Origin: an uncultured Spirochaetales bacterium
GTDB taxonomy: Bacteria > UBP6 > UBA1177 > JAKLFG01
Assembly: GCA_964412895.1 (NCBI GenBank)
Contig: CAYPQK010000007.1
Location: 1-51,353 of the forward strand
DNA: 51,353 bases
Reading direction: 5' to 3'
A program made the position numbers and the translations under genes. The notes beneath the pieces were generated by a model. It had not been told where the DNA came from. It did not search any database and worked only from the letters and a program-made list of their open reading frames with translations. Positions 2,945 through 6,200 of this stretch are shown here, piece after piece. Positions within the stretch are counted from its first letter, which is position 1. Each line of letters opens with the position of its first letter.

Positions 2945-4783
2945 ATGAAAATGATGTGTTACATCCTGTGTACGGCGCTTCTGCTCATCGTCGCCTGCGA
3001 CGGGAGCACCATCCAGAAACCGGGACCCGACACCAACACGAACGATACCGATCAGGCCGGGGGCGATGACCTGCTCAACGACGACGGTCAGCTCATCAAT
3101 GACGATGGCCAGCTCATCAACGATGACGGCCAACTGGTCAACGATGATGGTCAGGTCGTGAACGACGACGGTCAGATCGTCACCGACGACGACGGGACCA
3201 TCACCGACGAAACGAAACCCGACAGCGATATTCCGGTGGGCGACTGTTCGCTCAACAAGGATTGCGATCCGACCGAACTCTGCCAGAAGGCGACGGGGCT
3301 CTGCAACGAAGGGTTCGGCTCCTGCGAGACGCGCCCGGTCGAATGCCCCGCGGTCTCCTCGCCGGTCTGCGGCTGCGACGAAGTGACCTACGACAACGAA
3401 TGCATGGCCCACTCCTACGGCGTCAATGTTCTCTACGCGGGAGAATGCGGTTCGGTCATCACCTGCGGCTTCAACGGCGATTGTAAGGAGCTTCAGTTCT
3501 GCCAGCGGGCGACCGGGACCTGTGAAGTGAGCGCCGCCACCGGCGTCTGCACCGAAATGCCGCTCGGTTGTAATGACATCTACGCGCCGGTCTGCGGCTG
3601 CGACGGCAACACCTACGGTAACGAGTGTGCCGCTTTCTCGGCCGGCATGAATATCGACTACGAGGGGGAATGCGGTCTGGTGGAGACTTGCGGCAGCAAC
3701 AACGACTGCAGCGAGTTCGAGTTCTGCGCCAAGCCCGACGGCACCTGCGATGCCTACCTCGCCGGCACCTGCACGGAACTCCCGCTCGATTGCGGGATGA
3801 TATCGGCCGAGATAATCGTCTGCGGCTGTGACGGGAACACCTATAAACACCCCTGTTTCGCCAATGCCGCCGGGGTGAATGTCGCCTATGAGGGCGAATG
3901 CGGCACGGTGGTCACCTGCAAGACCGATCAGGAATGCGGCGACTTCGTGGCGATGCTCTGTCAGAAGGCGACCGGCGTCTGCGAGAACGGCACCGGCACT
4001 TGCGTGACGCCCGAGACCGGCTGTCCCGAGGTCTATGCGCCGGTCTGCGGCTGCGACGGCAACACTTACGGCAACGAATGTCTGGCCCATGCCAACTTCA
4101 TGAATGTCTCCTACGAGGGCGAATGCGGCGGCGGCGAAGGCTGCTATTACAATGAGGAGTGCCCAAGCGAGCCGAACGGCGGCAAGGGCTTCTGTCAGTT
4201 CGATACCGGTACCTGCTACGGTCCCGGTATCTGTTCGATCATGCCTCTGGCCTGCGACGGCATGTACGCCCCGGTCTGCGGCTGTGACGGCAATACCTAT
4301 TCCAACGAATGCCTCGCCAATTCAAACGGAGTATCGGTAAGCTACGACGGCGAATGCGGCGGAGAGGAGAAATACTCGACGATCTATTTTTACTACGAGC
4401 AGTCTTCCATGGAACAGCCAAACGCCACGGCGATCATCATCAACGGGCAGGAGACCGTCACCTTCGAAGGGGCCGATCTCATCACCCGGACACCCTTCAC
4501 CGGCGGCGTGACGCTCACCACCTCGTTCTACGGACCCGACGGCGGCGGCGTTGTCAACCTGCAGTTGACCGTGTACAGCAACGGCTTCTCGCTCCCCTAC
4601 ACCGTGACGCTCGACGGCAGCGAAAACTATGCGCAGTGGACCAACTTCTACGGCGGCGGCCCGACCCAACTGCTCGGCAACCTGTACGGCGAAGTGACCA
4701 TATCGCAGTACCAACGCGACAACAACGGCACCGTCACCCTTATCGAATTGAGCGGTGAGATGCTGACCTATACCGCGAATTGA
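2945..4783 (+). CDS. lipoprotein with acidic heptad-repeat stalk, five follistatin-like (Cys-rich + Kazal-type) modules and a C-terminal domain of unknown function
   Basis: Signal peptide plus lipobox (LLLIVAC|DG). Five copies of [14 protein letters not shown]...Y(E/A/D)GECG, each preceded by a 4-Cys module. GGGGGAG RBS present. Confidence 0.8.
   Translation: [612 protein letters not shown]
3077..3208 (+). repeat. in-frame 21-bp tandem repeat array (DDGQ[LIV][IV]N heptads)
   Basis: Encodes [44 protein letters not shown]. That is five clean units plus one degenerate unit. The DNA copies differ mostly at synonymous positions. Confidence 0.9.
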
Positions 4784-4811
4784 TCGACCACAAAGAAGAG
4801 GAGATATCTTC

Positions 4812-6200
4812 ATGAACAGAACGATCTTTCTGCTTTTTACAGCGTTGTTGTTCATCGCCGCCTGCGATGACAATACCGTCAACCGCTTCACGCTCGACAA
4901 GGATATCGTCGCCGTGAACGACACCGACGACCTGACGGGCGACGACCTGCTCAACGACGATGGGCAGCTCATCAACGACGACGGCCAGATCATCAACGAT
5001 GACGGCCAGATCATCAACGACGATGGCCAGATCGTGAATGACGACGGTCAGATCATCAATGACGATAATGAGGTCGTCAACGACGATGGCGAAGTGGTCC
5101 CCGACGACAACGAATGGACCGACGATGGTACCATTATCACCGACGACGGCACCGTCTGGCCCGACGATAACGAGTGGACCGACGATGGCACCGTCTGGCC
5201 CGACGACGGCCCGATACCGACCGACGATGGCACCGTCTGGCCCGACGACGGCCCGATGCCGACCGACGATGGCGTGATCTGGCCCGATCAGGACTGGACC
5301 GACGATGTGAAACCGGACGATGATTCGACCACCGTCTCCTGCGGCGACAACAATGGCTGCGCCCAGACCGAATACTGCGCCAAACCAGCCGGCAACTGCA
5401 ATACCTTCCTCGCCGGCACCTGCGAGGACCGTCCCCAGATGTGCCCGCCGCTCTATTCGCCGGTCTGCGGCTGTGACGGCACCACCTACGGCAGTGAATG
5501 CGACGCCTCGGCTGCCGGGGTCAATGTCGACTACGCGGGCGAATGCGGCACCACGCCGGGCTGTTACGGCAACGAGGAATGTACCGACAGCAGCGGCACC
5601 AAGCAGTTCTGCCTCTACGGCGTCGGCGCCTGCTACGGTCCCGGCACCTGCACCGACATCCCGATGACCTGCCCCGATCTGTACGCCCCGGTCTGCGGCT
5701 GCGATATGATGACCTACGAGAACGAGTGCTACGCCTATCAGGCGGGTGCCTCGATCATGTACGAAGGAGAATGTCAGGAAGAGAAGTATTCGACGCTCTA
5801 CTATTACTATGATCAGGACACCATGAACGCCCCCGAGGCCACCGTGGTCATCCGGACCGATGACGGCGAGGTCCAGTTCATCGGCGCCGAGCTCATGACC
5901 CGGACCACGCCCGACTATGGCTTCACGATCTACCTGAACACCGTTTTCTATGGACTCACCGACGATGGCAGCCAACTCGAATTCCAACTGAAACTCTCAT
6001 CCATCGGCTGGTCGATACCGAAGACCGTGACGCTCGACGGCGGCGACAACTACGCCCGCTGGACGCGGCTCGGCAACGAACTGGTCGGCAACCTCTACGG
6101 CGATGTGACGATACAGCAGTACACCCGTCAGGACACCGTCATCACCCTCATCGAGATAAACGGCGACTATCTCTCCTACACGCCGAACATTGTCCCATAG
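4812..6200 (+). CDS. paralogous lipoprotein: long acidic repeat stalk, two Kazal-type modules, same C-terminal domain
   Basis: Lipobox LLFIAAC|DD. Shares the junction [17 protein letters not shown] with the upstream gene. Kazal signatures are [36 protein letters not shown] and [35 protein letters not shown]. The C-terminus starts [11 protein letters not shown], compared with [11 protein letters not shown] in the paralogue. Confidence 0.8.
   Translation: [462 protein letters not shown]
4953..5306 (+). repeat. in-frame tandem repeat array (about 17 acidic 6-7-aa units with a 42-bp higher-order duplication)
   Basis: DDGQ(L/I)(I/V)N units grade into DDGTVWP / DDGP(I/M)PT / DDNEWT units. The 42-nt blocks 5178-5219 and 5220-5261 differ at a single base. 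Confidence 0.9.

What the first reader, a model, noticed from the sequence alone, without database searches (positions are those of the whole stretch)
2945..6200. Two adjacent lipoproteins built from repeated follistatin-like (4-Cys module + Kazal) units
Seen in sequence:
- ORF 2945-4783 has five copies of a roughly 60-70-aa unit. Each unit is a 4-Cys module (C-x2-[ND]-x-[DE]-C-x4-6-[FL]-C-x4-G-x-C...G-x-C) followed by a textbook Kazal signature, for example [36 protein letters not shown].
- ORF 4812-6200 has two such units.
- Both proteins start with a lipobox (IVAC|D, IAAC|D).

Established knowledge: Kazal domains are canonical inhibitors of S1/S8 serine proteases, best known from animals, apicomplexans and oomycetes. 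The combination of an N-terminal Cys module with a Kazal domain is the follistatin-domain layout. They are sporadic in bacteria, and I know of no characterised lipid-anchored multi-headed bacterial example.

Inference: these are surface- or periplasm-tethered multivalent protease inhibitors, serving as defence against foreign or predatory proteases or as control of the cell's own secreted proteases. A metal- or ligand-binding role is the alternative.
Basis: partly seen in the sequence, partly recalled or inferred. Interest (0 to 1): 0.8.

Follow-up and report, generated by a model that had tools for sequence, protein, structure and literature searches.

The report
Bacterial follistatin-like Kazal lipoprotein pair
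Two neighbouring genes of an uncultured anaerobic bacterium encode membrane-anchored proteins made of repeated Kazal-type protease-inhibitor modules plus a new β-domain; the module is common in bacterial metagenomes, so this is a moderately interesting variant rather than a rarity.

Summary
ORF A (2945-4783) carries five 10-Cys units and ORF B (4812-6200) carries two, each behind a lipobox.

- **Identity of the unit.** Both proteins pass Pfam's Kazal cut-offs. A structure model matches follistatin FS domains best, and its Kazal halves superpose on solved inhibitors.
- **Not textbook Kazal.** The classical fifth Cys is missing. An extra Cys in "CGCD" replaces it in 646 of 647 CGC-type units examined. 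The FOLN model does not hit.
- **Reactive loops.** Five of the seven window units keep a canonical loop (P3 Cys, P15' Asn, P4' Pro). P1 is the most variable loop position. Two units are non-canonical yet conserved among orthologues.
There are 21-bp-repeat acidic tethers, a shared 140-aa C-terminal β-domain with no known relative or solved fold, and a convergent S41 peptidase gene kept next to the pair in nine lineages.
- **Frequency.** The unit is not sporadic: at least 3,003 protein clusters match, and NCBI already names many as Kazal-domain proteins. The full lipoprotein architecture is rare (7 species genomes).

The most likely function is a tethered, multi-headed canonical serine-protease inhibitor. 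The target is unknown, and nothing has been tested biochemically.

The parts
2945..4783 (+). Gene A: 612-aa lipoprotein with an acidic tether, five FS-like Kazal units and a C-terminal beta-domain
   Evidence: ORF; GC3 0.80; Kazal_1 5.4e-23
2945..2998 (+). A signal peptide and lipobox ([19 protein letters not shown])
   Evidence: Read from the sequence; lipobox regex; no LipoP run
2999..3244 (+). A acidic tether with (NDDGQ[LIV][LIV])n heptads; 21-bp tandem array at 3075-3191
   Evidence: period 21, 5.6 copies
3245..3448 (+). Unit A1 (aa 101-168), canonical loop [9 protein letters not shown], P1 Ala, P15' Asn
3464..3673 (+). Unit A2 (aa 174-243), canonical loop [9 protein letters not shown], P1 Asp
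3689..3901 (+). Unit A3 (aa 249-319), non-canonical: 9-residue loop [15 protein letters not shown] with no P15' Asn. This 'TEYCAKP-type' unit is conserved in nearly all family members
3917..4126 (+). Unit A4 (aa 325-394), canonical loop [9 protein letters not shown]. P1 Glu is conserved in most A-type orthologues
4142..4357 (+). Unit A5 (aa 400-471), canonical loop [9 protein letters not shown], P1 Gly
4361..4780 (+). A C-terminal beta-domain (aa 473-612): no Pfam family and no solved-structure match
4812..6200 (+). Gene B: 462-aa paralogous lipoprotein, starting 28 bp after A
   Evidence: Kazal_1 1.8e-11
4812..4865 (+). B signal peptide and lipobox ([19 protein letters not shown])
4866..5339 (+). 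B acidic tether: NDDGQ heptads (array 4951-5090) followed by WPDD/TDDGT repeats (array 5115-5287)
5340..5546 (+). Unit B1 (aa 177-245), non-canonical: P2-P1 is Pro-Pro, TYGSEC; TEYCAKP-type; conserved in B-type orthologues
5562..5774 (+). Unit B2 (aa 251-321), canonical loop [9 protein letters not shown], P1 Asp. P1 varies among orthologues (D, D, K, L, L, D; Gly in the A5-like unit that occupies this position in P0044)
5778..6197 (+). B C-terminal beta-domain (aa 323-462); AF2 pLDDT 93.8; ten-strand antiparallel meander
6300..8069 (+). LRR / receptor-L-domain lipoprotein in the variable slot between the pair and S41; low GC3 (0.51). Probably an insertion and not part of the core
8101..9471 (-). 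S41 C-terminal-processing-type peptidase lipoprotein (Pept_S41_N + PDZ + S41) with Ser and Lys motifs intact. Conserved convergent neighbour of the pair

Best explanation
A and B are a paralogous pair of lipid-anchored envelope proteins. They most likely act as multi-headed, standard-mechanism (Laskowski-type) inhibitors of serine endopeptidases.

Proposed mechanism, step by step:
1. The N-terminal Cys is lipidated (inferred from the lipobox).
2. A long acidic, repeat-built tether of about 80 residues in A and about 160 in B spaces the folded part away from the membrane (inferred).
3. Each canonical unit (A1, A2, A4, A5, B2) is a bacterial follistatin-like module: a 4-Cys hairpin followed by a Kazal sub-domain.
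4. The reactive loop is P3 Cys, P2 Pro, P1 Asp/Glu/Ala/Gly, P1' Ile/Val/Leu, P2' Tyr, P3' Ala, P4' Pro, P5' Val. It is clamped by the K2-K4 and K3-K6 disulfides and by the P15' Asn.
5. The loop would sit in a protease active site like a substrate but be cleaved very slowly (inferred from the family).
6. The classical K1-K5 disulfide is replaced by K1 paired with the extra Cys of 'CGCD' (shown by covariation, not by chemistry).

The conserved non-canonical unit (A3 or B1) and the novel C-terminal beta-domain probably mediate docking to an unknown partner.

The target proteases are unknown. The acidic or small P1 residues point to subtilisin-like or Glu-specific enzymes rather than trypsin-like ones. 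These could be foreign or the cell's own.
For: - Kazal HMMs pass the curated cut-offs in both proteins.
- PDB profile search: LDTI 5e-10 with a gapless 37-residue alignment that includes the whole loop; ovomucoid 4e-10; PSTI 1e-08; agrin 4.6e-13.
- The AF2 model (units at pLDDT about 75-88) superposes on SPINK, LDTI and OMTKY3 complexes at 1.3-1.8 A.
- Of 588 units from 120 homologues, 537 keep the 7-residue loop, the P15' Asn and the P4' Pro.
- P1 is the most variable loop position (3.3 bits) while P4' and P5' are almost fixed. This matches the published rule that Kazal contact residues are hypervariable apart from P3 and P15' (PMC1236909).
- Cys covariation: CGC without K5 in 646 units; CGx with K5 in 10; neither in 9, which also lack K1; both in 1.
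- Lipobox and tether.
- Atypical Kazal domains with altered disulfides can still inhibit subtilisin stably (PMC1236909).
Against: - No biochemical data exist for any bacterial member.
- The whole unit is structurally closest to follistatin-type domains, which are ligand binders rather than inhibitors.
- P1 = Pro (B1) and P1 = Gly (A5) are poor P1 residues in ovomucoid-type inhibitors (my own knowledge of the OMTKY3 P1 series).
- In A-type orthologues the A4 loop is conserved rather than hypervariable. That fits a fixed endogenous partner better than an arms race.
- No S1 or S8 protease is encoded in the window.
- The organism looks anaerobic, so formation of 25 + 10 disulfides is unexplained.
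Confidence: 0.5

Rival explanations
1. The pair is functionally coupled to the neighbouring S41 C-terminal-processing-type peptidase lipoprotein. It could be a dedicated inhibitor or gatekeeper, an adaptor that delivers substrates (as NlpI does for Prc and LbcA for CtpA), or a substrate of that peptidase. The conserved non-canonical unit and the beta-domain would be the docking elements.
For: - A convergent S41 gene with the same architecture (Pept_S41_N + PDZ + S41) lies 0-3 genes downstream of the Kazal lipoprotein(s) in every locus that extends far enough. That covers nine lineages, with S41 identity 73-96%, plus L008 at 44%.
- Over the same loci the upstream flank changes (KBL, CarD, EamA, PilZ), and so does the gene on the other side of S41 (FGE-sulfatase, M49, PilZ).
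- S41 is itself a lipoprotein (FIAAC|E) with intact GGTASASE and TYGKP catalytic motifs.
- It is the only peptidase in the window.
- The A4-type P1 Glu and the A3/B1 units are conserved among orthologues, as expected for a fixed endogenous partner.
- C-terminal processing proteases are known to work with lipoprotein partners (PMC8764530, PMC11021448).
Against: - The genes are convergent, not co-transcribed. Unrelated genes (LRR, DUF3160, PLD) insert between them.
- Diverged paralogues with the same domains lie elsewhere with no S41 nearby (L026, L028, L030), as does the Kazal-less beta-domain protein (L027).
- Most S41-linked lineages are fairly close relatives, so shared ancestry alone could explain much of the synteny.
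- To my knowledge no Kazal inhibitor is known to act on a Ser-Lys-dyad S41 enzyme.
- Known CTP partners are TPR proteins, and no TPR is present here.
- Three generic multi-unit Kazal proteins show no protease neighbour.
Confidence: 0.2
2. The units are non-inhibitory binding modules, as in follistatin, agrin, SPARC/hevin or RECK. The proteins would then be tethered adhesins or ligand traps that bind a protein, a glycan or metal ions, with the acidic repeats possibly binding Ca2+.
For: - The best structural matches to the two-unit segment are follistatin, FSTL3 and hevin FS domains.
- The whole-unit profile alignments are to follistatin FS1, RECK and agrin.
- Two of the seven units have non-canonical loops, yet they are the most conserved units in the family.
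- The beta-domain occurs without any Kazal unit in P0126 and with other Cys-rich modules in P0124, so the Kazal array is not essential to that domain's role.
- A neighbouring variable LRR lipoprotein suggests a surface-interaction locus.
Against: - The 7-residue loop, P15' Asn, P2' aromatic and P4' Pro are those of true inhibitors, not of FS domains. By my recollection of the follistatin FS1 sequence, its equivalent loop is longer.
- The Kazal half is closer in sequence to LDTI, ovomucoid and PSTI than to follistatin (5e-10 against 8e-04).
- P1 is the most variable loop position across 591 units, which is hard to explain without a protease-contact role.
- No metal-binding motif or family was detected.
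Confidence: 0.2

Closest known systems
Non-classical Kazal inhibitors (leech-derived tryptase inhibitor LDTI; also ovomucoid third domain, PSTI/SPINK1), MEROPS family I1
   Same: - Gapless 37-residue alignment of the Kazal half to LDTI, with the same loop frame (CP-x-I/V-x-x-PVCG-x-DG-x-TY-x-N-x-C).
- 40-45% identity and 1.4 A rmsd for the model.
- P3 Cys, P15' Asn, and the K2-K4 and K3-K6 cysteines are present.
   Different: - K5 is absent and is replaced by an extra Cys two residues after K3 (CGCD).
- K1 lies 7 residues before K2, not 2 as in LDTI.
- P1 is mostly Asp/Glu rather than Lys/Arg/Leu.
- Each Kazal is fused to a 4-Cys N-module.
- The proteins are bacterial, lipid-anchored and untested.
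Follistatin (FS) domains of follistatin, FSTL3, agrin, SPARC/hevin and RECK
   Same: - A 10-Cys unit made of a small N-terminal disulfide hairpin plus a Kazal sub-domain, arranged in tandem arrays.
- Best Foldseek hits are follistatin (E 4.8e-06 over about 150 columns).
- Whole-unit profile alignment to follistatin FS1, RECK and agrin.
   Different: - The Pfam FOLN model does not match.
- There is an 8-9-residue spacer instead of the C-x-C junction.
- The partner of K1 differs.
- The loop is the short inhibitor-type loop.
- There is no evidence of growth-factor-like ligands in bacteria.
Generic bacterial multi-Kazal (CGCD-unit) proteins in metagenomes, named by NCBI as 'Kazal-type serine protease inhibitor domain-containing protein'
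   Same: - The same 10-Cys CGCD unit with the same spacing in 556 of 591 units, in arrays of 2-10.
- The A-type orthologue P0013 already carries this name.
   Different: - Most lack the lipobox, the NDDGQ tether and the C-terminal beta-domain.
- No S41 neighbour was seen in the three examined.
- The full architecture is confined to one MAG-only lineage.
Oomycete Kazal-like effectors EPI1/EPI10 (subtilase inhibitors)
   Same: - Atypical disulfide complement that is still inhibitory (PMC1236909).
- Multi-domain, extracellular, and acting on subtilisin-family enzymes.
- An acidic P1 in EPI1a (my recollection, not verified here).
   Different: - EPI1a lacks K3-K6, whereas here K1-K5 is re-wired.
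- The oomycete proteins are eukaryotic secreted effectors with no lipid anchor, no N-module and no beta-domain.
Lipoprotein partners of C-terminal processing proteases (NlpI-Prc, LbcA-CtpA)
   Same: - A lipoprotein encoded or acting together with an S41 peptidase in the envelope.
- Here a conserved gene neighbourhood links lipoproteins to an S41 lipoprotein.
   Different: - NlpI and LbcA are TPR proteins that activate or adapt the protease. A and B have no TPR and look like inhibitors.
- The linkage here is synteny only, and it is absent for the diverged paralogues.

Membership tests
Kazal domain (Pfam PF00050/PF07648; MEROPS I1) | Significant match to the family HMM above the curated cut-off | tested here: met
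   Kazal_1 81.2 bits (cut-off 21) for A and 44.3 bits for B. Kazal_2 64.7 and 33.9 bits (cut-off 22.8). The best Kazal_1 stretches cover only profile positions 1-29 of 49.
Kazal domain (Pfam PF00050/PF07648; MEROPS I1) | Six Cys forming the 1-5/2-4/3-6 disulfides (PMC1236909) | tested here: not met
   There are six Cys, but the classical C5 position is Ala (alignment to LDTI). An extra Cys follows C3 (CGCD). Covariation across 666 units indicates that K1 pairs with the extra Cys instead. The K2, K3, K4 and K6 positions are conserved. No chemical disulfide map is available.
Kazal domain (Pfam PF00050/PF07648; MEROPS I1) | Canonical reactive loop: P3 is the second Cys, P15' Asn is conserved, other contact residues are variable | tested here: met
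   Met in units A1, A2, A4, A5 and B2; not met in A3 and B1. Met in 537 of 588 units of homologues. P1 is the most variable loop position.
Kazal domain (Pfam PF00050/PF07648; MEROPS I1) | Alpha-helix plus beta-hairpin fold that superposes on solved inhibitors | tested here: met
   The AF2 model (units at pLDDT about 75-88) matches SPINK2-derived 6kbr, LDTI 2kmo/1an1 and OMTKY3 at 1.3-1.8 A over 38-45 residues. This is model-level evidence only.
Kazal domain (Pfam PF00050/PF07648; MEROPS I1) | Tight-binding inhibition of a serine protease | not testable with these tools
   Needs protein expression and enzyme assays.
Follistatin (FS) domain = FOLN + Kazal | Match to the FOLN (follistatin/osteonectin EGF-like) HMM | tested here: not met
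   FOLN is not listed for either protein. The isolated N-module gives no Pfam hit at E<=10.
Follistatin (FS) domain = FOLN + Kazal | A 10-Cys unit whose whole length resembles solved FS domains | tested here: met
   10 Cys per unit. Foldseek top hits are follistatin 2b0u_C at E 4.8e-06, plus 5jhw, 3hh2, FSTL3 and hevin FS-EC. The unit profile aligns at positions 7-72 to follistatin 67-135 (E 7.8e-04), and to 1lr7, RECK and agrin.
Follistatin (FS) domain = FOLN + Kazal | FS-type Cys spacing (C-x-C junction between sub-domains; K1-K5 disulfide) | tested here: not met
   There are 8-9 residues between the fourth N-module Cys and K1. K5 is absent. The FS spacing is recalled from my own knowledge of follistatin.
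Bacterial lipoprotein | Signal peptide ending in a lipobox [LVI][ASTVI][GAS]C | tested here: met
   LIVAC in A and FIAAC in B, each after a short basic n-region and a hydrophobic h-region. 17 of the 18 subfamily representatives match a lipobox regex, and the 18th (AMGC) is near-consensus. LipoP/SignalP were not available, and lipidation is not shown.
CTP adaptor lipoproteins (NlpI/LbcA type) | TPR-repeat fold that binds the S41 protease | tested here: not met
   No TPR family is detected in A or B. The C-terminal domain is all-beta. Binding to S41 was not tested.

The most novel reading that the evidence does not exclude
The A/B lipoproteins are dedicated protein regulators of the co-localised S41 C-terminal-processing peptidase. 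Their conserved non-canonical FS-like unit and the novel beta-domain would dock onto the enzyme, and a canonical Kazal loop (P1 Glu) would occupy its Ser-Lys active site. To my knowledge this would be the first Kazal-type inhibitor of a non-S1/S8 protease and the first proteinaceous inhibitor of a CTP.
Probability: 0.12. Interest if true: 0.75.

Novelty: new variant of a known kind. Interest (0 to 1): 0.42.

Why it matters
Kazal inhibitors and follistatin domains are usually thought of as eukaryotic.

- **A large bacterial pool.** A re-wired 10-Cys follistatin-like Kazal unit is abundant in bacterial metagenomes, with thousands of clusters in several phyla. None appears to be characterised. 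That is a large untapped pool of disulfide-rich protease-binding scaffolds with a naturally diversified P1.
- **Three testable additions in this locus.** These are a lipid anchor with a repeat-built acidic tether, a confidently folded beta-domain with no detectable relative or solved fold, and a conserved neighbourhood with an S41 processing peptidase.
- **If the S41 link is functional.** It would add a new type of regulator to envelope proteolysis.
- **If it is not.** The proteins are still a reasonable entry point for asking what bacterial Kazal arrays inhibit.

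Tried and rejected
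- **FOLN membership.** No hit for the whole proteins or for the isolated N-module at E<=10.
- **NCBIfam.** No family for A or B.
- **C-terminal domain identity.** No credible Pfam hit (one weak chance-level match, P2_N at E 0.028). The word-indexed search listed only three further hits. The exhaustive HMM search found only about 10 true relatives. Foldseek against PDB and BFVD gave nothing below E 0.026, with TM <= 0.39. The GFP, PloI4, dirigent and lipocalin barrel hits were rejected as insignificant.
- **S41 linkage as a general property of bacterial Kazal arrays.** Rejected. Three generic proteins and four diverged relatives have no S41 neighbour.
- **Promoter and terminator scan.** Uninformative: terminator-like sites fall below the shuffle expectation.
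- **Taxon.** Source names conflict ('bacterium', 'Deltaproteobacteria bacterium', 'uncultured Spirochaetales bacterium'), so I left the lineage unassigned.
- **Literature.** Six searches found no characterised bacterial Kazal or FS protein, only eukaryotic ones. Much of the subscription literature, for example reviews of prokaryotic peptidase inhibitors, is not in the library.
- **Metal- or Ca-binding role for the acidic heptads.** Only sub-threshold Pfam noise, so this was not pursued.
- **Direct inspection of disulfides in the models.** Not possible because coordinates are not returned. I used Cys covariation instead.

Full report
**1. Observation**

Both ORFs are real and lie where stated. 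They have the high third-position GC of genuine genes in this window (0.80 and 0.82).

- Protein A (612 aa) has 53 Cys and protein B (462 aa) has 21. Apart from the signal-peptide cysteines, which include the lipobox Cys, they fall into five and two units of 10 Cys respectively.
- The seven units are 41-56% identical to one another.
- They share an invariant skeleton, C-x5-C-x(5-10)-C-x6-C-x(5-8)-C-x6-C-x(7,9)-CGCD-x2-TY-x3-C-x14-C.
- Pfam Kazal_1 and Kazal_2 are hit above their curated cut-offs in both proteins.
- Both N-termini fit a lipobox (LIVAC|D, FIAAC|D).

**2.

- Behind each lipobox lies an acidic spacer built from 7-aa repeats (NDDGQ[LIV][LIV]; B also has WPDD/TDDGT repeats). These are encoded by 21-bp tandem arrays at 3075-3191, 4951-5090 and 5115-5287.
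- After the last unit, both proteins end in a shared domain of about 140 aa (A 473-612, B 323-462; 51% identical). It has no credible Pfam match.
- A and B are 28 bp apart on the same strand.

**3. What the unit is**

*Sequence.* A profile of the seven units finds agrin (4.6e-13), ovomucoid (4e-10), LDTI (5e-10), PSTI and rhodniin. Over its whole length it also aligns to RECK and to follistatin FS1 (2b0u 67-135, E 7.8e-04; 1lr7). The alignment to LDTI is gapless over 37 residues and includes the entire reactive loop.

*Structure.* An AF2 model of B residues 170-462 (mean pLDDT 71, units about 75-88) has follistatin chains as its best PDB matches (2b0u_C at E 4.8e-06 over 156 columns, that is, two units; also 5jhw, 3hh2, FSTL3, hevin FS-EC). 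Each Kazal sub-domain superposes on SPINK, LDTI and OMTKY3 at 1.3-1.8 A.

Three family features fail:

- The Pfam FOLN model does not hit, even on the isolated N-module at E<=10.
- The sub-domain junction is 8-9 residues long rather than C-x-C.
- The classical fifth Kazal Cys is missing.

*Disulfide re-wiring.* Across the units of the retrieved homologues, the extra Cys of 'CGCD' and the classical K5 are mutually exclusive:

| Unit type | Number of units |
|---|---|
| CGC, no K5 | 646 |
| CGx, with K5 (LDTI-like, all in P0107) | 10 |
| Neither (these also lack K1) | 9 |
| Both | 1 |

This is strong comparative evidence that K1 pairs with the new Cys, while K2-K4 and K3-K6 are kept. It has not been shown chemically, and I could not inspect model coordinates.

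**4. Does it look like an inhibitor?**

The published rules (PMC1236909) are that P3 is the second Cys, P15' is a conserved Asn, and the remaining contact residues are hypervariable.

- In 591 units from the 120 best homologues the spacing is the same in 556. P4' is Pro in 581 and P5' is Val in 572. P2' is aromatic and P2 is mostly Pro or Thr.
- P1 is the most variable loop position (3.3 bits: D 145, E 110, A 73, L 60, R 37, Q 36, K 33).
- 537 of 588 units combine the 7-residue loop, the P15' Asn and the P4' Pro.
- In the window, A1 (P1 Ala), A2 (Asp), A4 (Glu), A5 (Gly) and B2 (Asp) are canonical.
- A3 (9-residue loop, His at P15') and B1 (Pro-Pro at P2-P1, Ser at P15') are not.

This favours standard-mechanism inhibition by five of the seven heads. 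The specificity would be away from trypsin-like enzymes. No assay exists.

**5. Distribution and novelty**

- Nearly all of the top 120 have 2-10 CGCD units.
- NCBI already names many of them 'Kazal-type serine protease inhibitor domain-containing protein', in MAGs labelled Planctomycetota, Polyangiaceae and 'bacterium'. One Deferrisomatales MAG protein is named only 'hypothetical protein'. The A-type orthologue P0013 carries a Kazal name.
- 'Sporadic in bacteria' is therefore not true of metagenomes, and the domain-level annotation is not new.
- The full architecture (lipobox, NDDGQ tether, units, C-terminal domain) is rare. It occurs in 18 of the 120 representatives and in 7 of 185,579 species-representative genomes, all uncultured MAGs with conflicting or no taxonomy. 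The metagenome scan returned 7 loci, several of them the same lineages.
- The window encodes Omp85, TamB and MlaD-type proteins, aldehyde:ferredoxin oxidoreductase and ferredoxin. The host is therefore an anaerobic diderm.

**6. The C-terminal domain**

- An exhaustive HMM search of 1.84 billion representatives gave only 15 hits at E<=1e-3. About 10 are genuine.
- P0128, P0129 and P0132 are diverged lipoproteins with 3-4 units plus the domain.
- P0126 is a lipoprotein with two tandem copies of the domain and no Kazal unit.
- P0124 has the domain flanked by other Cys-rich modules.
- With these sequences added, AF2 gives a confident model (pLDDT 93.8, pTM 0.88) of a ten-strand antiparallel meander.
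- Foldseek finds nothing significant in the PDB (best E 0.026, TM <= 0.34) or in BFVD.

It is a lineage-restricted domain of unknown fold class and function. It is the constant element of this small family.

**7. Unit bookkeeping**

- Every A-type orthologue keeps an A3-like unit, an A4-like unit and the domain, except P0013 and P0006, which each retain only one of the two units.
- Every B-type orthologue keeps a B1-like unit and the domain, normally with a B2-like unit; in P0044 the second unit is A5-like.
- A3 and B1 share the N-module 'TEYCAKPxGxC..LAGTCExRP'. This unit type recurs even in the diverged paralogues.
- The ancestral protein was therefore probably one non-canonical unit, one canonical unit and the beta-domain.
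- Window A and P0001 have three extra canonical units. The orthologue in the near-identical relative L009 (KBL 96% identical) has only two units, so unit number changes quickly.
- P1 Glu of the A4-type unit is conserved in most orthologues, whereas P1 of the B2-type unit varies.

**8. Genomic context**

- In every locus that extends far enough, a convergent S41 peptidase gene (Pept_S41_N + PDZ + S41) lies 0-3 genes downstream of the Kazal lipoprotein(s). The loci are the window, L001-L021 (apart from the three generic-protein loci L016-L018) and L023-L025. They represent nine lineages, with S41 identity to the window of 73-96%, plus L008 at 44%.
- The upstream flank varies (KBL, CarD, EamA, PilZ). 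So do the gene beyond S41 (FGE-sulfatase protein, M49 peptidase, PilZ) and the occupants of the slot between them (nothing; an LRR lipoprotein; DUF3160 proteins; a PLD-like protein).
- The window S41 is itself a lipoprotein. It keeps the CtpA-type Ser (GGTASASE) and Lys (TYGKP) motifs. Its closest structure is the uncharacterised 3k50.
- It is the only peptidase in the 51-kb window.

Against a functional link:

- The genes are convergent.
- Most of the linked lineages are fairly closely related.
- The diverged paralogues lie elsewhere without an S41 neighbour. One of them is in the same genome as L001.
- Three generic multi-Kazal proteins have no protease neighbour.

I treat the S41 link as a real but unproven lead.

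**9. Most likely mechanism and rivals**

*Best explanation (about 0.5).* These are lipid-anchored, tether-extended, multi-headed canonical inhibitors of serine endopeptidases of unknown identity. A conserved non-inhibitory unit and the beta-domain would serve as docking elements.

- Shown: domain identity, loop conservation pattern, Cys covariation, lipobox, repeats.
- Inferred: lipidation, localisation, inhibition, target class.

*Rival 1 (about 0.2).* The pair is a partner (inhibitor, adaptor or substrate) of the neighbouring S41 peptidase, by analogy with NlpI-Prc and LbcA-CtpA.

*Rival 2 (about 0.2).* The units are non-inhibitory follistatin- or agrin-like binding modules.

**10. Verdict**

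The finding is real and correctly read at the domain level, but it is less exceptional than scored. The module is abundant in bacteria and already auto-annotated. What is new:

- the re-wired disulfide variant, which has not been described in the literature I could search;
- the lipoprotein architecture with its tether;
- the orphan beta-domain;
- the S41 neighbourhood.

I rate it a new variant of a known kind, with interest about 0.4.

**Limits**

- No biochemical data.
- No signal-peptide predictor was available.
- The literature library lacks most subscription reviews on prokaryotic inhibitors.

Noticed in passing
window 6300-8069 (+): A 589-aa lipoprotein (LLLAC|N) with LRR / receptor-L-domain repeats has GC3 0.51, against about 0.8 for all its neighbours, so it looks recently acquired. 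In the near-identical relative L009 the same slot holds an LRR protein that is only 34% identical. In other lineages the slot holds DUF3160 or PLD-like genes, or nothing. It appears to be a variable slot for envelope proteins between the Kazal pair and S41.
   Followed up: partly
window 9582-11243 (+): A 553-aa protein with a C-terminal FGE-sulfatase domain (partial similarity to GldK/PorK, below cut-off) and an N-terminal membrane/coiled region. It is conserved next to S41 in the window, L004 and L009 (85-87% identical), and is present in a diverged, inverted form in L006.
   Followed up: partly
P0126 (L027 7001-8191) and P0124: The orphan C-terminal beta-domain also occurs without Kazal units. 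P0126 is a lipoprotein with an acidic linker and two tandem copies of the domain. In P0124 the domain sits in the middle, flanked by other Cys-rich modules.
   Followed up: partly
L028 7001-8557 (GCA_964415795.1, contig CAYQBN010000004.1): The genome that carries the L001 pair has a third, diverged paralogue (P0132, four units plus a diverged beta-domain) at another site. It lies next to a 658-aa Laminin_G_3 protein and has no S41 nearby.
   Followed up: partly
P0107 (827 aa) and P0093 (792 aa): P0107 is a bacterial protein with ten LDTI-like 'non-classical' Kazal units (C-x-C ... CG-x-D ... C-x3-C) and an Antistasin Pfam hit. It is therefore a second, differently wired bacterial Kazal array. 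P0093 comes from a eukaryotic transcriptome set (EukProt) yet carries the bacterial-type CGCD units behind a eukaryote-like signal peptide. That could be contamination, horizontal transfer or shared ancestry.
   Followed up: no
window 28716-30901 (-) compared with 2945-6200: The window encodes aldehyde:ferredoxin oxidoreductase and a 4Fe-4S ferredoxin, which are markers of an anaerobe. Yet A and B would need about 25 and 10 disulfides. No Dsb- or VKOR-type gene is present in the window, so how these proteins are oxidised is unexplained.
   Followed up: no
window 2996-3001, 4863-4868 and 9409-9414 (-): A, B and the S41 peptidase all have an acidic residue at position +2 after the lipobox Cys (D, D, E). 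In E. coli that would signal inner-membrane retention. Its meaning in this lineage is unknown, but it suggests all three share a compartment.
   Followed up: no
window 16127-17650 (-), 35209-36864 (+), 46918-48474 (-): Three sizeable ORFs (507, 551 and 518 aa) with gene-like codon bias have no Pfam family at E<=1e-4 or 1e-5.
   Followed up: no
window 44-2803 compared with L004 7391-7900: In L004, CarD lies directly upstream of the Kazal pair. In the window, CarD_C (44-445) is separated from the pair by an epimerase/threonine-dehydrogenase-like gene and a KBL-type aminotransferase. That two-gene block is therefore either an insertion in the window lineage or a loss in L004.
   Followed up: no
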